NCBI RefSeq assembly: GCF_055900595.2
Contig: NZ_CM148325.1
Reading direction: 5' to 3' (one strand)
DNA: 64,000 bases
The notes beneath the pieces are model-generated. The model was not told where the DNA came from and searched no databases. It worked only from the letters and a program-made list of their open reading frames with translations. The translations under genes and the position numbers were made by a program. Numbering within the stretch: position 1 is the first letter of the stretch; the number at the start of each line of letters is the position of its first letter. Positions 30,003-37,619 of this stretch are shown here, piece by piece.

Positions 30003-30587
30003 GTGACGATTAAATTGATTGTCGGCCTGGCGAACCCCGGCGCTGAATACGCCGCAACGCGACATAATGCTGGTGCCTGGTTCGTTGACTTACTGGCAGA
30101 GCGATTGCGCGCTCCGCTGCGCGAAGAGGCTAAATTCTTTGGTTATACTTCGCGAGTCACCCTTGGAGGCGAAGATGTCCGCCTGTTAGTCCCGACTACA
30201 TTTATGAATCTCAGCGGCAAAGCCGTTGCGGCGATGGCCAGTTTTTTCCGCATTAATCCGGACGAGATTCTGGTGGCCCACGACGAACTGGATCTGCCTC
30301 CTGGCGTCGCCAAATTTAAGTTGGGCGGTGGCCATGGTGGTCACAATGGACTGAAAGACATCATCAGTAAATTGGGTAATAACCCTAACTTTCACCGTTT
30401 ACGCATCGGAATCGGTCATCCGGGCGATAAAAATAAAGTTGTCGGTTTTGTGTTAGGCAAACCGCCTGTTAGTGAACAGAAGTTAATTGATGAAGCCATC
30501 GACGAAGCGGCACGTTGTACTGAAATGTGGTTTACAGAGGGCTTGACCAAAGCAACGAACCGATTGCACGCCTTTAAAGCGCAATAA
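30003..30587 (+). CDS. pth: Peptidyl-tRNA hydrolase
   Basis: 194 aa from a GTG start ([27 protein letters not shown]...). Confidence 0.9.
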
Positions 30588-30703: not shown

Positions 30704-31795
30704 ATGGGATTCAAATGCGGTATCGTCGGTTTGCCCAACGTCGGGAAATCTACCCTGTTCAACGCGCTGACCAAAGCCGGTATTGAAGCGGCCAACTTTC
30801 CATTCTGCACCATCGAGCCGAACACAGGCGTCGTACCAATGCCTGACCCTCGCCTGGATCAACTGGCTGAAATCGTAAAACCGCAGCGTACGCTTCCCAC
30901 GACCATGGAATTTGTCGATATCGCCGGTCTGGTAAAAGGCGCATCGAAAGGCGAAGGTCTGGGTAACCAGTTCCTGACCAACATCCGTGAAACCGAAGCG
31001 ATCGGTCACGTTGTTCGCTGCTTTGAAAACGACAACATCATTCACGTTTCCGGCAAAGTTAACCCGGCGGATGATATTGAAGTTATCAACACAGAACTGG
31101 CGCTGGCAGACCTCGACACCTGCGAACGTGCGATTCATCGCGTACAGAAGAAAGCCAAAGGCGGCGATAAAGACGCGAAAGCCGAGCTGGCGGTACTGGA
31201 AAAATGCCTGCCACAGCTGGAAAACGCAGGTATGCTGCGCGCGCTGGATTTAAGCGCTGAAGAGAAAGCGGCTATTCGTTACCTGAGCTTCCTGACGCTG
31301 AAACCAACAATGTACATCGCCAACGTCAACGAAGACGGTTTTGAAAACAACCCGTATCTTGACCAGGTGCGTGAAATCGCGGCGAAAGAAGGTTCTGTTG
31401 TGGTTCCGGTTTGTGCTGCTGTTGAAGCAGACATTGCCGAACTGGACGACGAAGAACGTGACGAGTTTATGCAGGAGCTTGGGCTGGAAGAGCCGGGCCT
31501 GAACCGCGTGATCCGTGCCGGTTATAAGCTGCTGAACCTGCAAACTTACTTCACTGCTGGGGTGAAAGAAGTGCGTGCATGGACCATTCCGGTTGGTGCA
31601 ACCGCGCCGCAGGCCGCTGGCAAAATCCATACTGATTTTGAAAAAGGCTTTATCCGCGCACAAACTATTTCGTTCGAAGATTTCATCACTTACAAAGGTG
31701 AACAAGGCGCGAAAGAAGCAGGCAAAATGCGTGCAGAAGGTAAAGATTACATCGTTAAAGATGGCGATGTAATGAACTTCCTGTTCAACGTCTAA
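30704..31795 (+). CDS. ychF: Ribosome-binding ATPase YchF (Obg family)
   Basis: 363 aa; P-loop GLPNVGKST and a C-terminal TGS domain. Confidence 0.95.
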
Positions 31796-31854
31796 TTAAT
31801 TTGTTGTCTCATGAGGTTTCGCTAAATCTCATGAAGAGCGCAAAAGTATATAAA

Positions 31855-31879
31855 ATCCACGCAATTGCGTGGATTTTTC
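31855..31879 (+). terminator. Intrinsic terminator after ychF
   Basis: ATCCACGC-AATT-GCGTGGAT palindrome followed by TTTTTC; A-run upstream makes it potentially bidirectional. Confidence 0.65.
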
Positions 31880-32639
31880 ATTTCACCGAGTCCTAACCAT
31901 TCTTATAACATCCTACACTTTTGTGCTTATTGCCTATAGTGAACCACGAGAATAATTAAAGACATAAGTGTTCAGATGAGGGATATCTCATTAGCAATGA
32001 GATCACGTAAGTTTGTGTTCCACTGCACATCAGACACCTTTTACAGCTGATCAATATTGATCACGCTCCAATATGCTGGCGAGAAAAGGACTTGCCTGAA
32101 GGGCAATATCCAGCAGATAAAGCCCCCGAATAACGTGATTACGTGCGATCCTGGCAAGATGAAAATGATAACCAGTATCACGATAATAACGATATGCCAG
32201 AAAATCCATTGATCAAAAATGAATATCGATGTTTTTTGCTTTTTCTTATTAGTAATGCAAAAATGGCTCATATTGTTTTTGTTATGCAGATACATCAAGC
32301 GAAAACCCCATAACTAATTAGGATTATTACCAAAAATATTCACCAAATTATTTAACCGCTGTTTGTTGTAATGTTTTTGTCATATTCATAGTAACGAATT
32401 GGAATAAGTAACGACAACTTAGGGAATAACTCGATCTAAACTCACCTTTGTAAGGGGGATGTTAAATATATATTAATTCCTGTGTTCCTGATTTTGCCCG
32501 GTAATAGAGAATTATTCTCAGAGCAGCTCATCATGATTGCACCATACAAATATCATGATGATAAGAGGATATTATTCATTGACTTAAACAAAGTGACAAA
32601 ATCCATAGACCCATAGCTTGGGTACTATATAGGAGTGGT

Positions 32640-35507
32640 ATGGGCATCAAACAACATAATGGGAATACCAAAGCCGATCGTCTCGCTGAATTAAAAATCC
32701 GTTCGCCCTCCATTCAACTGATAAAATATGGCGCTATTGGTTTGAATGCAATTATCTTTTCCCCCCTGCTGATAGCTGCTGATTTAGGAAGTCAAAATGG
32801 CACCAATATTACTATTAATGATGGTGACAGAATTACAGGAGATACCGCCGATCCATCAGGAAACCTCTATGGTGTAATGACCCCAGCAGGAAACACGCCT
32901 GGCAATATCAACCTGGGTGATGATGTCACCGTCAATGTCAACGACGCCTCTGGATATGCAAAGGGAATCATTATTCAGGGCAAGAACAGCTCTCTGACAG
33001 CTAACCGACTTACAGTAGATGTTGTTGGTCAAACCTCTGCCATCGGCATTAATTTAATTGGTGACTATACACATGCTGACTTAGGCACAGGCAGCACCAT
33101 TAAGAGTAACGATGACGGCATCATTATTGGGCATAGCTCAACACTAACAGCCTCTCAATTCACCATTGAAAACTCGAACGGTATAGGCCTAACCATCAAT
33201 GACTATGGCACCAGTGTCGATCTTGGAAGCGGTAGTAAAATCAAGACCGATGGAAGTACAGGTGTTTATATCGGTGGTCTCAACGGCAATAACGCCAACG
33301 GTGCTGCGCGTTTTACGGCGACAGACCTGACAATCGATGTTCAGGGCTACAGCGCCATGGGAATAAACGTACAGAAAAACTCTGTTGTCGATCTCGGAAC
33401 AAACAGTACCATTAAAACCAATGGCGATAATGCACACGGCCTCTGGAGCTTTGGCCAGGTGAGCGCGAATGCACTCACTGTTGATGTAACTGGAGCCGCT
33501 GCCAATGGCGTCGAAGTTCGTGGTGGTACAACCACTATCGGTGCTGATAGCCATATTTCTTCCGCGCAGGGCGGTGGCCTCGTAACCAGTGGTTCAGACG
33601 CGACAATCAATTTTTCTGGCACGGCAGCGCAACGAAACAGCATCTTTTCCAGCGGTTCTTATGGTGCCTCAGCCCAGACGGCAACGGCTGTTATCAACAT
33701 GCAAAATACCGATATTACGGTTGATCGTAATGGCAGTCTGGCGCTGGGTTTGTGGGCGCTCAGCGGCGGTAGAATAACCGGAGACAGTTTGGCTATCACC
33801 GGCGCGGCAGGAGCCAGGGGGATTTATGCCATGACCAACAGCCAGATCGATCTCACGAGCGATCTGGTCATTGATATGAGTACACACGACCAGATGGCCA
33901 TCGCAACGCAACATGACGATGGTTATGCCGCCAGCCGCATCAACGCTTCGGGTCGTATGCTTATCAACGGTAGCGTTCTTTCTAAAGGTGGGCTAATCAA
34001 TCTGGATATGCACCCTGGGTCGGTTTGGACAGGTTCTTCCCTCAGCGATAATGTCAATGGCGGGAAACTAGACGTTGCAATGAATAACAGCGTCTGGAAC
34101 GTAACAAGTAATTCTAATCTCGACACGCTGGCGCTGAGCCATTCAACTGTCGATTTTGCCAGCCACGCGTCAACTGCCGGCACATTTACCACATTAAACG
34201 TAGAGAACCTTAGCGGTAACAGTACCTTTATTATGCGTGCTGATGTTGTTGGCGAGGGTAATGGCGTTAATAATAAAGGGGATTTATTGAATATCAGCGG
34301 GAGTAGTGCTGGTAATCACGTATTGGCTATCCGTAACCAGGGCAGCGAGGCCACAACGGGAAATGAAGTTCTGACAGTGGTAAAAACCACTGACGGCGCG
34401 GCCTCGTTCAGCGCGTCTTCTCAGGTTGAGTTGGGGGGATATCTGTATGATGTGCGTAAAAATGGCACTAACTGGGAGCTTTATGCTTCCGGGACAATTC
34501 CGGAGCCGACTCCTAATCCAGAGCCCACACCAGCTCCCGCTCAGCCCCCCATAGTCAACCCTGATCCTACGCCTGCCCCCGCTCCCACGCCTAAACCCAC
34601 CACGACCGCAGATGCTGGCGGCAATTATCTCAATGTCGGTTACTTATTGAACTATGTTGAAAACCGTACGCTGATGCAACGGATGGGTGACCTGCGAAAT
34701 CAGGGTAAAGACGGTAATATCTGGTTGCGCAGTTATGGGGGAAGCCTGGACTCCTTTGCCAGTGGCAAACTGAGCGGCTTTGACATGGGTTACAGCGGTA
34801 TCCAGTTTGGTGGGGATAAACGTCTCTCTGATGAAATGCCGTTGTATGTCGGTCTGTATATTGGCTCAACACATGCATCGCCGGACTATAGCGGAGGCGA
34901 CGGTACCGCACGTTCAGACTACATGGGAATGTACGCCAGTTACATGGCACACAACGGTTTTTACAGCGATCTCGTTGTAAAAGCATCGCACCAGAAAAAT
35001 AGTTTCCACGTACTGGACAGTCAGAACAACGGCGTTAACGCCAACGGCACTGCGAATGGATTGAGCATCTCCCTGGAAGCCGGGCAGAGGTTCAACCTGA
35101 CCCCTACTGGTTATGGGTTCTATATAGAGCCGCAAACCCAGCTCACATACAGCCACCAGAATGAGATGGCTATGAAGGCGAGTAATGGTCTCAATATACA
35201 TCTGAATCACTACGAATCGCTGCTGGGGCGTGCCAGCATGATACTGGGATATGACATCACCGCAGGCAACAGCCAGCTGAATGTCTATGTGAAGACTGGC
35301 GCTATCCGCGAGTTTTCAGGGGATACCGAATATCTGTTGAACAACTCCCGGGAGAAGTACAGTTTCAAAGGTAATGGCTGGAATAACGGCGTGGGAGTCA
35401 GAGCACAGTATAACAAACAGCACACATTCTATCTCGAAGCGGATTACACGCAGGGTAACCTCTTTGATCAGAAGCAAGTCAACGGAGGATATCGCTTCAG
35501 CTTTTAA
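32640..35507 (+). CDS. ycgV: Autotransporter adhesin (type Va secretion), YcgV-like
   Basis: 955 aa; Gly/Thr/Asn-rich repetitive passenger; Pro-rich linker (PEPTPNPEPTPAPAQPPIVNPDPTPAPAPTPKPTT); C-terminal beta-barrel ending ...GGYRFSF. Confidence 0.85.
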   Translation: MGIKQHNGNTKADRLAELKIRSPSIQLIKYGAIGLNAIIFSPLLIAADLGSQNGTNITINDGDRITGDTADPSGNLYGVMTPAGNTPGNINLGDDVTVNVNDASGYAKGIIIQGKNSSLTANRLTVDVVGQTSAIGINLIGDYTHADLGTGSTIKSNDDGIIIGHSSTLTASQFTIENSNGIGLTINDYGTSVDLGSGSKIKTDGSTGVYIGGLNGNNANGAARFTATDLTIDVQGYSAMGINVQKNSVVDLGTNSTIKTNGDNAHGLWSFGQVSANALTVDVTGAAANGVEVRGGTTTIGADSHISSAQGGGLVTSGSDATINFSGTAAQRNSIFSSGSYGASAQTATAVINMQNTDITVDRNGSLALGLWALSGGRITGDSLAITGAAGARGIYAMTNSQIDLTSDLVIDMSTHDQMAIATQHDDGYAASRINASGRMLINGSVLSKGGLINLDMHPGSVWTGSSLSDNVNGGKLDVAMNNSVWNVTSNSNLDTLALSHSTVDFASHASTAGTFTTLNVENLSGNSTFIMRADVVGEGNGVNNKGDLLNISGSSAGNHVLAIRNQGSEATTGNEVLTVVKTTDGAASFSASSQVELGGYLYDVRKNGTNWELYASGTIPEPTPNPEPTPAPAQPPIVNPDPTPAPAPTPKPTTTADAGGNYLNVGYLLNYVENRTLMQRMGDLRNQGKDGNIWLRSYGGSLDSFASGKLSGFDMGYSGIQFGGDKRLSDEMPLYVGLYIGSTHASPDYSGGDGTARSDYMGMYASYMAHNGFYSDLVVKASHQKNSFHVLDSQNNGVNANGTANGLSISLEAGQRFNLTPTGYGFYIEPQTQLTYSHQNEMAMKASNGLNIHLNHYESLLGRASMILGYDITAGNSQLNVYVKTGAIREFSGDTEYLLNNSREKYSFKGNGWNNGVGVRAQYNKQHTFYLEADYTQGNLFDQKQVNGGYRFSF

Positions 35508-35606
35508 GTGCGGGATAGACAAGCCCTTAAACGATGCTGAAAATTTTTAGCGTGCGCCGGAATGAAATACAGATCACTCTGATGTATCAGAAATCGTCTC
35601 TGTCTT

Positions 35607-37526
35607 TCATACCCGGCGCTTAAACTGCCCTGCATCAATGCCATGTTGCTTCATTTTCCGCCACAGCGTAGTGCGGCCGATTCCAAGTAAAGCCGACATT
35701 TCCTGAATGCGACCGCCTGTGACCTGGGCTGCGTTAATAATTGCCTCTTTTTCAACTTCCGCAAATGACAGACTGGTGGAAAGGCGAGTGGCGCTGACAT
35801 CATCTGTCGCCTGCTCGGTAAACAGATGTTCAGGCAAATCACTGACGCGAATGCGCCCGTTATCACTACTCAGAGCAAGATTCTCGATGACGCTGTAAAG
35901 TTCAAAATCGTTGCCTGGCCATGCACAAGAAACCAGGCGAGCGAGGGCATCGTCATCAATTTTCAGACGCGTAGAGAAGCGTTTTTCAAGACTGCGTAAT
36001 TTGTTATTCACCAGCGCCGGAATGCTGCCACGCCGCATACGCAGAGGCGGGATGGTAATTTCAAATGCATGCAGCGCGTAATACAGCTGGCGACTAAAGC
36101 GATTTTGTTCCACCAGCATTGCCAGGTCCGCGGTCGTTGTGGCAATCACTTTGACATCAATTGGTATTAAACGCCGCGCATCCAGTCGCGTGATAACACC
36201 CTGCTTGATAACCTGAAGCAAAGCAGACTGTAACTCCACCGCCAGATATTCAATCTTTTCAAGAAACAGCGTGCCGCCGTGCGCCAGTTCCAGTCGACTC
36301 AGACGACCATTTTCATTGTCCGTGCGATCGCCGCCAATAAATTCTTCCGCCAGCGCCGCATCACCATATAACTCACAATTGACGGCGATGTAGGGACCTG
36401 CTGCACGCTCACTTTCATTATGAATTGCCTGACTTAGCAGTGCCTTGCCTACGCCCTCTTCGCCACAAAGCAAAACAGGAAAGCTACTACGCGCCGCCTG
36501 GCGGCCAAAATGAATCAAGCGGCGAGTTTGCGGATCGTCCTGTGGCATATGAGCGAAGGTATGGCTGACTTTTCCCAATTGACTGGTCATCAACTGCCGC
36601 ATCTGTTCCACGGGATGGAGCAACAAAATAAAGCTGGTTCCCTGCGTTTCTATTATCGGTTTAAGGGTTATCACCGCATCAATAAACTGGTGCTGACTTT
36701 CAAAGGTTGCTTCTACGTGTTTGAGCGGATGTGCCTGTTTTATTGCTTGTTGCAATACAGCGGGTAACGTTAAGAGTTCAGTGATCGCCCTTCCCTGACT
36801 TGCCGTCGCGTCAAGGCGCAAGACCCGCGCCGCCTGGGCATTGATAAATTGCAAATTACCCTGCTCGTCCCAGCTAATCACGCCATCGTCCATACTTTCC
36901 AGCAAGGCGTTAAGTTGATTTAAATGTCGGTTTGTTTCAGCCAGTAAATTGTCGGTCAGCAGTAAATTTCCGACCTCGCGTGCGATTGCCAACGTCAACG
37001 GCAAATCAGCTGCGGTAGTTTGCTCAACCGGACACGCCAGCGCTATTGTTCCCGTCAATCGGCCCTTGCTGTCAAACAACGGTGTTGCACAAAAGGCCCA
37101 GTTCCAGAGTGCCTGTTTGAAATGTTGATCGGCCATCGTTTTCACGGCCTGACCAGAGATAGCCGCTAACGATAGCGCACAGGTACCAATAATTCCCTCT
37201 GCGCAATACGTGCCGTCATTGAATCCCAGGACGCTAAGCTGGTGCAGCGTTTGTGGATCACCAAAACGACTAAGGATGCAGGCGGTTTCATCAAGGATGA
37301 ACAGTCCGCACGCCCGCGATTCCATATATTCCCAGGCATCTTCCAGCGCAGCCTGCCCGAGCGTCAGCATCACTTTCTTACGCCGATAGATAGAAGCAAA
37401 TGTCACGCCCTGGGCCTGGTGCGGTACGCTCCATGTCTCCCGTTTCATCAGTTTATTGCATCGCTCCCAGGAGGCTGCAATTAAGGGAGATATGCCCCGT
37501 TCATCGTTGTTAAAAGCGCCACTCAT
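35607..37526 (-). CDS. dhaR: Sigma-54-independent PAS/AAA+ transcriptional activator of dihydroxyacetone kinase genes
   Basis: 639 aa from MSGAFNNDERGISPLIAASWERC; GAF/PAS, AAA+ (GEEGVGK) and C-terminal Fis-type HTH. Confidence 0.9.
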   Translation of the reverse strand: MSGAFNNDERGISPLIAASWERCNKLMKRETWSVPHQAQGVTFASIYRRKKVMLTLGQAALEDAWEYMESRACGLFILDETACILSRFGDPQTLHQLSVLGFNDGTYCAEGIIGTCALSLAAISGQAVKTMADQHFKQALWNWAFCATPLFDSKGRLTGTIALACPVEQTTAADLPLTLAIAREVGNLLLTDNLLAETNRHLNQLNALLESMDDGVISWDEQGNLQFINAQAARVLRLDATASQGRAITELLTLPAVLQQAIKQAHPLKHVEATFESQHQFIDAVITLKPIIETQGTSFILLLHPVEQMRQLMTSQLGKVSHTFAHMPQDDPQTRRLIHFGRQAARSSFPVLLCGEEGVGKALLSQAIHNESERAAGPYIAVNCELYGDAALAEEFIGGDRTDNENGRLSRLELAHGGTLFLEKIEYLAVELQSALLQVIKQGVITRLDARRLIPIDVKVIATTTADLAMLVEQNRFSRQLYYALHAFEITIPPLRMRRGSIPALVNNKLRSLEKRFSTRLKIDDDALARLVSCAWPGNDFELYSVIENLALSSDNGRIRVSDLPEHLFTEQATDDVSATRLSTSLSFAEVEKEAIINAAQVTGGRIQEMSALLGIGRTTLWRKMKQHGIDAGQFKRRV

Positions 37527-37619
37527 ATCCCGCATCCTTTGTGACAAAAGGTGTTCCGGCTCGCAATTTTTAGTATTAAAACGCGTAAAAGTTTCAATAT
37601 GGAACATTCATTAAAACAT

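What the first reader, a model, noticed from the sequence alone, without database searches (positions are those of the whole stretch)
31880..32639. AT-rich, gene-poor region of about 760 bp upstream of the ycgV autotransporter
The region between the ychF terminator and ycgV is markedly AT-rich, with long A/T tracts, and holds only one weak ORF (85 codons, 32041..32298, minus strand). That ORF is hydrophobic but has no clear RBS. This composition is typical of H-NS-silenced promoters of accessory surface adhesins, and ycgV is probably cryptic under laboratory conditions. The region could also hide a small membrane peptide or an sRNA.
Basis: inference. Interest (0 to 1): 0.3.

Follow-up and report, generated by a model that had tools for sequence, protein, structure and literature searches.

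The report
AT-rich silenced upstream region of ycgV
This is the AT-rich control region in front of the accessory E. coli adhesin gene ycgV, already catalogued in strain K-12 as an H-NS-bound "promoter island", and the small hydrophobic ORF inside it evolves like non-coding DNA, so the finding is real but ordinary.

Summary
The 844-bp ychF–ycgV spacer (31796-32639) has 35.5% G+C against 50.3% for the window, the lowest of any stretch. It starts just after a strong bidirectional ychF terminator and contains one 85-codon minus-strand ORF with no good ribosome-binding site.

The main interpretation is supported, but it is already published. The K-12 orthologue (about 95% identical) is one of 78 listed "promoter islands" and was H-NS-bound in all three groups of genome-wide H-NS binding studies compiled there (PMC3661553). 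YbdO binds the last 126 bp and represses ycgV (PMC11681634). Here, -10-like hexamers are 3.6-fold denser than the window average. The spacer plus ycgV is a present/absent module: ST131 carries a 26-kb integrase island in the same slot.

The small-peptide and sRNA idea is not supported.
- Homologues of the ORF occur only in E. coli and Shigella, as 84-, 81-, 77-, 67- and 59-codon forms, and one allele is cut to 19 codons by a deletion.
- dN/dS is about 1, and variable sites show no third-position excess.
- A nonsense polymorphism and 75-bp and 188-bp deletions segregate in the population.
- An ORF this long arises in 13% of composition-matched shuffles.
- There is no Rfam match and no covariation.

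Verdict: already known, low interest.

The parts
31852..31877 (.). Bidirectional intrinsic terminator of ychF. It marks the left edge of the AT-rich variable module.
   Evidence: Perfect 13-nt arms. Folds at -15.5 kcal/mol (z -5.2) on + and -16.2 (z -4.1) on -. Invariant in 13 alleles apart from one SNP. Homology with the ST131 locus ends at 31884, just after it.
31796..32639 (.). The whole ychF–ycgV spacer: the AT-rich regulatory and silencing region of ycgV.
   Evidence: G+C 0.355 against 0.503 for the window, the lowest in the window. -10-like hexamers at 20/kb against 5.6/kb, top 0.3% of 844-bp stretches. TpA steps 0.089 against 0.047. No annotated feature in 90 sampled RefSeq genomes or in K-12.
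31880..32040 (.). The most polymorphic part of the spacer. The wider minus-strand stretch 31975-32070, which runs on into the ORF's 3' end, folds stably, but the fold is not supported by covariation.
   Evidence: Nucleotide diversity 0.045 against 0.015 in the flanking coding ends. Fold z -4.6, but 0 of 25 pairs show compensatory change.
32041..32298 (-). 85-codon hydrophobic ORF (84 codons from the ATG at 32295). Judged a neutrally evolving chance ORF of T-rich DNA, not a gene.
   Evidence: Homologues only in E. coli and Shigella, with lengths of 84, 81, 77, 67 and 59 aa, plus one allele cut to 19 codons by a 188-bp deletion. Variable sites by codon position are 13/5/8. dN/dS is 0.74-1.6 between divergent alleles, and codon 68 carries a CAA/TAA polymorphism. 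No Pfam or NCBIfam family. Length is reached in 12.9% of shuffles.
32076..32150 (.). 75-bp segment present in this strain and deleted in K-12-type alleles. The deletion is in frame and removes 25 codons of the ORF.
   Evidence: Alignment with K-12 and with 13 alleles. The segment is bounded by the CTGGC(G/A)AG direct repeat visible in the alignment. Roughly half of the genomes that carry the region match it in two pieces at 79% coverage.
32048..32063 (.). 16-bp perfect palindrome TGATCAATATTGATCA carrying two Dam (GATC) sites 10 bp apart. Role unknown.
   Evidence: Both GATC sites are kept in all but one of the 12 alleles that retain this stretch, whereas the other four GATC sites of the spacer are not conserved.
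32181..32481 (.). Equivalent of the published K-12 'promoter island' 1255333_301, the most AT-rich core.
   Evidence: PMC3661553 Table 1. Coordinates were converted using the +778 offset between U00096.2 and U00096.3, checked, and the K-12 alignment. G+C is 0.275-0.32 here.
32390..32414 (.). Direct repeat AGTAACGA ×2, 17 bp start to start. A candidate protein-binding site, untested.
   Evidence: Both copies are invariant in all 13 alleles.
32513..32639 (+). ycgV-proximal promoter and leader segment. It equals the EMSA probe bound by the LysR-type repressor YbdO. It contains two copies of the palindrome ATCATGAT (32530-32537 and 32552-32559), arranged as a 10-bp inverted repeat at 32528-32561, and the Shine-Dalgarno AGGAG at 32631-32635.
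   Evidence: The primer sequences in PMC11681634 map here, by comparison. The hairpin folds at -11.1 kcal/mol, z -2.0. The segment is conserved in 11 of 13 alleles.
32640..35507 (+). ycgV, an intact 955-aa classical autotransporter adhesin and the gene this region controls.
   Evidence: ORF. Pfam Pertactin (6.6e-38) and Autotransporter beta-domain (1.7e-37). RefSeq annotation of orthologues.

Best explanation
The region is the regulatory spacer of the accessory autotransporter adhesin gene ycgV.

Shown: it is the most AT-rich DNA in the window. It is dense in -10-like hexamers. It belongs, together with ycgV, to a 3.7-kb module (about 31885-35613) that is present in roughly three quarters of E. 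coli genomes. Other strains have something else or nothing in that slot.

Shown for the K-12 orthologue in the literature: the spacer is a 'promoter island' occupied by H-NS in all three groups of genome-wide H-NS binding studies compiled in the table. The LysR-type regulator YbdO binds the last 126 bp and lowers ycgV mRNA.

Inferred mechanism: H-NS nucleates on the AT-rich core (about 32180-32480). It spreads over the ycgV promoter and the AT-rich 5' end of the gene and keeps transcription low. The many promoter-like sites recruit RNA polymerase unproductively. The strong bidirectional ychF terminator keeps ychF read-through out of the silenced domain and stops divergent island transcripts from running antisense into ychF. 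Specific factors (YbdO, and some Pho-regulon-linked input) modulate the residual expression.

The 85-codon hydrophobic ORF is a by-product of T-rich sequence. It drifts neutrally and is not a gene.
For: Composition and rank in the window.
-10-like density is 20/kb against 5.6/kb, and TpA and A-tract density are doubled.
The K-12 spacer aligns at about 95% identity apart from a 75-bp indel.
That spacer is listed as promoter island 1255333_301 with H-NS column 'A', meaning all studies, and as associated with a predicted foreign gene.
A SELEX peak for a minor-sigma holoenzyme, listed under the heat-shock sigma section, lies in the same spacer.
YbdO EMSA and qRT-PCR.
ycgV is regulated rather than constitutive.
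Presence/absence polymorphism: 4117 of 5426 genomes carry the ORF region. ST131 has a 26-kb integrase/retron/IS island between ychF and dhaR. HH45 has only fragments.
A 20-mer invariant in all 13 aligned E. coli alleles was not found in any other species representative.
Terminator strength.
Neutral evolution of the ORF and its chance-level length.
No annotated feature in the spacer.
Against: H-NS occupancy was not and cannot be measured here for this allele. It rests on one compiled table for K-12, and the primary ChIP supplements were not available.
The published 10-bp high-affinity H-NS motif is not enriched: one 2-mismatch hit, next to the terminator.
A rough wedge-model curvature profile is unexceptional apart from the terminator (parameters recalled from memory).
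The stringent two-hexamer promoter scan finds only 2 sites, fewer than in composition-matched shuffles (mean 4.2). The 'island' property is therefore essentially AT-richness.
I found no report of ycgV derepression in an hns mutant.
The ycgV transcription start is unknown.
Confidence: 0.8

Rival explanations
1. The minus-strand ORF (32041-32298) encodes a genuine small inner-membrane protein. It would have one or two transmembrane helices behind a Lys-rich N-terminus, and be transcribed divergently from ycgV.
For: The first 48 codons (MYLHNKNN..IIFILP) stay open in 12 of 13 alleles and in all protein-database variants. The K-12 75-bp deletion is in frame. The sequence has a positive-inside Lys cluster followed by a hydrophobic stretch, read. 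Gene callers sometimes predict it and name it 'membrane protein'.
Against: dN/dS is about 1 (0.74-1.6). There are 16 non-synonymous against 6 synonymous variable codons, and no third-position excess (13/5/8). A nonsense polymorphism, frameshifted C-termini and a 188-bp deletion segregate. The ORF is restricted to E. coli and Shigella. There is no family match and no convincing Shine-Dalgarno. The length is expected in 13% of shuffles. PGAP never annotates it. No start-codon coordinate at 12562xx-12564xx appears in the held Ribo-RET supplement of Stringer et al. (weak evidence, since the locus is silenced).
Confidence: 0.07
2. The spacer encodes a small RNA or structured antisense/divergent transcript on the minus strand. 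It would start in the promoter island and end at or before the bidirectional ychF terminator.
For: The minus strand of 31975-32070 folds at -33.9 kcal/mol, z -4.6. Several substitutions keep pairs through G-U. The ychF terminator also works on the minus strand. Promoter islands are reported to make short transcripts (PMC3661553).
Against: No Rfam family reaches its gathering score; the only hits are terminator look-alikes at 31 bits against 50. 0 of 25 predicted pairs show compensatory change, and the covariation term is only -0.83. This segment is the most polymorphic of the spacer, with nucleotide diversity 0.045, and it is deleted in one strain. No ncRNA is annotated in K-12.
Confidence: 0.05
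3. ycgV is phase-variable through Dam methylation of GATC sites in the spacer, as for its relative agn43 (flu).
For: There are six GATC sites in 844 bp against about 2.8 expected from composition. Five lie within 32001-32214, and two sit in a conserved perfect palindrome. A methylome study lists ycgV among biofilm genes with differentially methylated GATC sites (PMC10653831 / bioRxiv 2022.12.14.520158).
Against: Only the palindrome pair is conserved, and it lies about 580 bp upstream of the ATG. The other four sites are lost in common alleles. There is no OxyR half-site match within 1 mismatch anywhere in the window. The site positions were not recoverable from the paper's supplements.
Confidence: 0.04
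4. The spacer is merely decaying, functionless DNA left at a recombination hotspot. It would be AT-rich through mutational bias and have no role in controlling ycgV.
For: Nucleotide diversity is two to three times that of the flanking coding DNA, and deletions of 75 and 188 bp segregate. ycgV itself is frameshifted or fragmented in some strains.
Against: The 340 bp nearest ycgV include long invariant blocks, among them both repeat motifs and the Shine-Dalgarno. A regulator binds there. H-NS occupancy is reported. ycgV is intact in most sampled strains.
Confidence: 0.04

Closest known systems
E. coli K-12 'promoter island' ycgV/ychF (1255333_301; Panyukov & Ozoline 2013, PMC3661553)
   Same: It is the orthologous sequence: same flanking genes and about 95% identity over the aligned part. 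The AT-rich core is the same. The table reports it as H-NS-bound in all three groups of genome-wide binding studies it compiles and as linked to a predicted foreign gene.
   Different: The window allele carries an extra 75 bp (32076-32150) and about 5% substitutions. Its ORF is the rare uninterrupted 84-codon form instead of K-12's 59 codons. H-NS binding has not been measured for this allele.
Classical H-NS xenogeneic silencing of AT-rich accessory loci, for example hlyE/clyA, which lies in this same window at about 60.4-61.4 kb. That hlyE is H-NS-silenced is from my own knowledge.
   Same: A low-GC tract covers the promoter and the 5' coding region of a non-core surface or secreted-protein gene.
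   Different: For ycgV no hns-mutant derepression or anti-silencer has been reported in the papers I could read. The known specific regulator, YbdO, is a repressor.
agn43 (flu) regulatory region: Dam/OxyR phase-variation switch of a related autotransporter
   Same: It lies upstream of an adhesin of the same phylogenetic group of autotransporters (PMC9289746). GATC sites are present.
   Different: There is no OxyR site. The GATC sites are not clustered at the promoter and are mostly not conserved.
yfaL/ypaB promoter island of K-12 (same table)
   Same: It is another cryptic autotransporter adhesin gene preceded by an H-NS-bound promoter island. That ypaB is a small ORF within such an island is from my own knowledge.
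   Different: It is a different locus, and sequence similarity was not tested.

Membership tests
H-NS-bound promoter island / xenogeneically silenced regulatory region | AT content far above the genome average over at least 300 bp | tested here: met
   G+C 0.355 over 844 bp against 0.503 for the window. This is the lowest in the window, with a minimum of 0.275.
H-NS-bound promoter island / xenogeneically silenced regulatory region | Abnormally high density of promoter-like sites | tested here: inconclusive
   -10-like hexamers run at 20/kb against 5.6/kb, top 0.3% of stretches. The stricter two-hexamer scan gives 2 sites against 4.2 in composition-matched shuffles. The original PlatProm criterion was not run. 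The K-12 orthologue is on the published list.
H-NS-bound promoter island / xenogeneically silenced regulatory region | H-NS occupancy in vivo | not testable with these tools
   This is reported for the K-12 orthologue in all three groups of genome-wide H-NS binding studies compiled in PMC3661553 Table 1. The primary supplement is not held.
H-NS-bound promoter island / xenogeneically silenced regulatory region | Association with accessory or horizontally acquired DNA | tested here: met
   The spacer plus ycgV is absent from about 24% of 5426 genomes. It is replaced by a 26-kb integrase island in ST131. A 20-mer invariant in all 13 aligned E. coli alleles is absent from other species representatives. 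It is flagged as foreign in column C of the published table.
H-NS-bound promoter island / xenogeneically silenced regulatory region | Derepression of the downstream gene when hns is deleted | not tested
   I found no such report for ycgV, and it needs an experiment.
Bacterial small membrane protein gene | ORF kept intact across strains that carry the locus | tested here: not met
   Among the alleles there are forms of 84, 67 and 59 codons and one cut to 19 by a deletion. The protein database also holds frameshifted 81- and 77-aa forms.
Bacterial small membrane protein gene | Purifying selection (dN/dS well below 1, third-position excess) | tested here: not met
   dN/dS is 0.74-1.6 between divergent alleles. 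Variable sites by codon position are 13/5/8. The sample is small, with 12 distinct alleles.
Bacterial small membrane protein gene | Translation signals and evidence of translation | tested here: inconclusive
   There is only a weak GGGG 10 nt upstream of the ATG. No matching coordinate appears in one Ribo-RET supplement. No direct data exist for this strain.
Small regulatory RNA / structured RNA | Match to a described family, or covariation supporting a fold | tested here: not met
   No Rfam hit reaches its gathering score. 0 of 25 pairs show compensatory change.
Dam/OxyR phase-variation switch (agn43 type) | Conserved GATC cluster overlapping an OxyR site at the promoter | tested here: not met
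   There is no OxyR half-site. The conserved GATC pair lies about 580 bp upstream, and the other sites are not conserved.

The most novel reading that the evidence does not exclude
The T-rich ORF is an E. coli-restricted 'proto-gene'. In this reading, a transmembrane peptide born de novo from AT-rich silenced DNA is translated when H-NS silencing is lifted. Its conserved N-terminal 48 codons would be the functional core and its C-terminus free to vary. The adjacent stable minus-strand fold and GATC palindrome would serve as its 3' end and control element.
Probability: 0.06. Interest if true: 0.45.

Novelty: already known. Interest (0 to 1): 0.12.

Why it matters
It matters little beyond bookkeeping. 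The region is a textbook-style example of an AT-rich, H-NS-occupied control region in front of a dispensable adhesin gene, and its K-12 counterpart is already listed as such.

Three modest results come from this check.
- The tempting hydrophobic ORF should not be annotated as a gene.
- The ychF|dhaR slot is a variable insertion site. It holds ycgV in most strains and an integrase/retron/defence island in ST131.
- Two invariant repeat motifs, AGTAACGA ×2 and ATCATGAT ×2, are concrete candidates for the operators of YbdO or of other ycgV regulators.

Tried and rejected
- Rfam scan at a permissive threshold gave only terminator look-alikes (Leu_leader, 31 bits against a cutoff of 50) and one miRNA chance hit.
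- Pfam and NCBIfam on the ORF gave nothing meaningful.
- The protein database search returned only E. coli and Shigella length variants.
- The H-NS high-affinity 10-mer TCGATAAATT is not enriched.
- Wedge-model curvature, with parameters recalled from memory, gives a spacer mean at the 39th percentile. Only the terminator peaks.
- A Pho-box search, prompted by ycgV induction in a pst mutant, found no match within 3 mismatches.
- An OxyR half-site search found no match.
- Searches of phage and plasmid collections found no phage match. There were nine 'plasmid' matches, all predicted non-mobilizable; three are chromosome-sized records, and I take the rest to be mislabelled chromosomal pieces.
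- A scan of one genome per species with a 20-mer invariant in all 13 aligned E. coli alleles found only two contaminant contigs. Nothing could be learned about other Escherichia species, and exact matching may have missed diverged copies.
- The covariation test on the stable minus-strand fold found no compensatory pairs.
- Literature not obtainable: Roux et al. 2005, Thomason et al. 2015, and the Kahramanoglou ChIP-seq supplement.
- The methylome paper's supplements did not contain the ycgV site.
- The PIRT-Seq supplement had no ycgV-spacer entry.

Full report
**Locus.** The window is E. coli. Reading left to right it holds pth (30003-30587), ychF (30704-31795), an 844-bp spacer (31796-32639), ycgV (32640-35507) and dhaR on the opposite strand (35607-37607). 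RefSeq annotation of a near-identical genome and of K-12 gives the same order. ycgV is intact at 955 aa and carries Pertactin and Autotransporter beta-domains.

**Check of the observation.** The described stretch, 31880-32639, has G+C 0.355 against 0.503 for the window. Only 0.14% of 760-bp stretches are as low, and the window minimum lies here. The trough reaches 0.275 at 32200-32399, and G+C stays below about 0.47 until roughly 33300, inside ycgV. Pure A/T runs are moderate: six of 8 nt or more, the longest 17 nt.

The ychF terminator is a perfect 13-nt-arm hairpin at 31852-31877. It is flanked by an A-run and a T-run and is stable on both strands (-15.5 and -16.2 kcal/mol; z -5.2 and -4.1), so it is bidirectional.

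The ORF lies exactly where stated, at 32041-32298 on the minus strand. It has 85 codons from a TTG or 84 from the ATG, and it is hydrophobic. Upstream of the ATG there is only GGGG at a 10-nt distance. An ORF this long appears in 12.9% of 2000 dinucleotide-preserving shuffles of the spacer, and one of 59 codons or more in 58%.

**What is already published.** The spacer aligns with K-12 at about 95% identity, apart from a 75-bp segment (32076-32150) that K-12 lacks. K-12 has no annotated feature there, and none appears under the match in 90 sampled RefSeq genomes.

Panyukov and Ozoline (PMC3661553, Table 1) list 'ycgV(-)ychF(-) 1255333_301' among 78 promoter islands. The entry has H-NS column 'A', meaning bound according to all three groups of genome-wide binding studies compiled there (Grainger et al., Kahramanoglou et al., Oshima et al.). 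It also has a mark for association with a predicted foreign gene. I used the +778 offset between U00096.2 and U00096.3, checked against the dhaK distance, together with the alignment. With that conversion the island corresponds to window ~32181-32481, the AT-rich core.

A genomic-SELEX peak for a minor-sigma holoenzyme, listed under the heat-shock sigma section, also lies in this spacer. In APEC, the LysR-type regulator YbdO shifts a 126-bp probe whose primers map to 32513-32639, and it lowers ycgV mRNA 3- to 4-fold. ycgV mRNA rises 4-fold in an APEC pst mutant and falls under copper stress in MG1655. YcgV promotes adhesion and biofilm formation (reviews citing Roux et al. 2005). That paper itself was not available. 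My recollection that it describes ycgV as poorly expressed in the laboratory is from memory only.

**My own tests of the silencing reading.**
- -10-like hexamers are 3.6 times denser than the window average (20 against 5.6 per kb), and the spacer is the top region of the window.
- TpA steps and A/T-tracts are doubled.
- The stricter two-hexamer scan gives 2 sites, fewer than in composition-matched shuffles (mean 4.2). The 'island' is therefore essentially a consequence of AT-richness.
- The 10-bp high-affinity H-NS motif is not enriched.
- A rough wedge-model curvature profile is unremarkable except at the terminator (parameters from memory, low weight).

**Accessory nature of the module.**
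- Of 5426 complete E. coli genomes, 4726 match some part of the spacer and 4117 carry the ORF region.
- In an ST131 strain, homology stops at 31884, just after the terminator, and resumes at 35614 in the end of dhaR. In between lies a ~26-kb island with two tyrosine recombinases, IS elements, a retron Ec67-type reverse transcriptase and an ABC-three-component system.
- Strain HH45 keeps only scraps of the spacer and of ycgV.
- The closest genome to the window has an 11-bp frameshifting deletion in ycgV.
- A 20-mer invariant in all 13 aligned E. coli alleles was found in no other species representative. The only hits were two obvious E. coli contaminant contigs.
- Nothing similar exists in the phage collection or in genuine plasmids.

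Spacer plus ycgV (about 31885-35613) is thus one alternative occupant of a variable slot between ychF and dhaR. This fits xenogeneic silencing.

**The small ORF.** The protein search found 82 relatives, all from E. coli or Shigella. Their lengths are 84, 81, 77, 67 and 59 aa. The 81- and 77-aa forms have frameshifted C-termini, the 67-aa form ends at a premature stop, and the 59-aa form is the K-12 in-frame deletion.

In an unbiased sample of 12 distinct alleles taken by DNA similarity:
- two have the full 84 codons;
- six stop at codon 68 (CAA to TAA);
- three have the 25-codon deletion;
- one has a 188-bp deletion that leaves 19 codons.

The uninterrupted form seen in the window belongs to a minority: 189 genomes match the ORF region at 99% identity or more. 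Variable sites fall 13/5/8 on codon positions 1/2/3. Sixteen variable codons change the amino acid and six do not. Pairwise dN/dS between divergent alleles is 0.74-1.6. That is the neutral pattern.

Nucleotide diversity in the ORF (0.031) is like the rest of the spacer (0.029-0.045) and twice that of the adjacent coding ends (0.015). There is no Pfam or NCBIfam family. No start-site coordinate in this interval occurs in the held supplement of a Ribo-RET study of K-12. That is weak evidence, since the locus is silenced. Hydrophobicity is what a T-rich strand encodes by default. I conclude that the ORF is not a gene.

**The sRNA idea.** Rfam gives nothing at threshold. The minus strand of 31975-32070 folds unusually well (z -4.6). 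Across ten alleles, however, none of the 25 predicted pairs shows a compensatory change. This is also the most polymorphic part of the spacer, and one strain lacks it. The evidence does not support an sRNA but does not exclude one.

**Dam-dependent phase variation.** Six GATC sites occur in the spacer, and two sit in a conserved 16-bp palindrome (32048-32063). A methylome study names ycgV among genes with differentially methylated GATCs. But the other sites are lost in common alleles, the conserved pair is about 580 bp from the start codon, and no OxyR half-site exists. This reading is unlikely.

**Candidate operators.** Two motifs are well conserved. AGTAACGA ×2 (32390 and 32407) is invariant in all 13 alleles. 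The palindrome ATCATGAT ×2 (32530 and 32552) lies two helical turns apart within the YbdO probe and is intact in 11 of 13 alleles. They are the best candidates for specific regulator sites, but that is inference only.

**Conclusion.** The optional 'hidden peptide or sRNA' reading is not supported.

Most likely mechanism (confidence about 0.8):
- H-NS spreads from the AT-rich core over the ycgV promoter.
- The bidirectional ychF terminator insulates the silenced domain.
- YbdO and other inputs tune the residual expression.

Novelty: already known. Interest: low.

Noticed in passing
window 60250-61750: This is the second low-GC stretch of the window (G+C 0.35-0.44). It covers the umuD–hlyE spacer and hlyE/clyA: the 351-codon ORF at 60377-61432 begins ...MTEIVADKTVEVVKNAIETADGALDLYNKYLDQ. 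From my own knowledge hlyE is a classic H-NS-silenced gene, so it is an in-window comparator.
   Followed up: partly
L015 (NZ_CP019008.1 2895190-2921650), equivalent to window 31885-35613: In ST131 the ychF|dhaR slot holds a ~26-kb island instead of ycgV. The island has a tyrosine integrase 215 bp after the ychF stop, ISEc24, a second recombinase, a RadC protein, an ABC-three-component system and a retron Ec67-family reverse transcriptase. The slot is therefore an integration and defence-island hotspot.
   Followed up: partly
window 32048-32063: A perfect 16-bp palindrome, TGATCAATATTGATCA, carries two Dam sites 10 bp apart and sits at the stop codon of the small ORF. It is conserved across alleles while the surrounding DNA is polymorphic. 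No binding protein has been identified.
   Followed up: partly
window 32390-32414 and 32528-32561: Two conserved repeat motifs lie upstream of ycgV. AGTAACGA ×2 (17-bp spacing) is invariant in all 13 alleles. ATCATGAT ×2 (22-bp spacing) also forms a 10-bp inverted repeat and is intact in 11 of 13 alleles. The second lies inside the published YbdO EMSA probe.
   Followed up: partly
L016 (JAEWQO010000123.1) and L017 (NZ_JARVKW010000136.1): E. coli ychF–ycgV DNA, 94-96% identical to the window, sits in assemblies labelled as an Actinomycetes MAG and as Streptomyces sp. DH24 (a 400-bp contig at coverage 0.84). This is almost certainly contamination of those assemblies.
   Followed up: yes
window 34385-34395 (ycgV): The genome with a 100% identical spacer (NZ_CP098223.1) has an 11-bp deletion here that frameshifts ycgV, whereas the window's copy is intact. 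Over 12.8 kb the two differ by 23 mismatches, so the window comes from a related but different strain.
   Followed up: yes
L004 6074-6520 (strain HH45): The ycgV locus is reduced to a patchwork of short fragments: spacer 32574-32631, and ycgV 33290-33410 and 33853-33922. This shows multi-step decay of the module in some lineages.
   Followed up: yes
plasmid collection hits H91-H99: All nine 'plasmid' records matching the spacer are predicted non-mobilizable. Three are 4.8-4.9 Mb, that is, chromosomes filed as plasmids in PLSDB.
   Followed up: no
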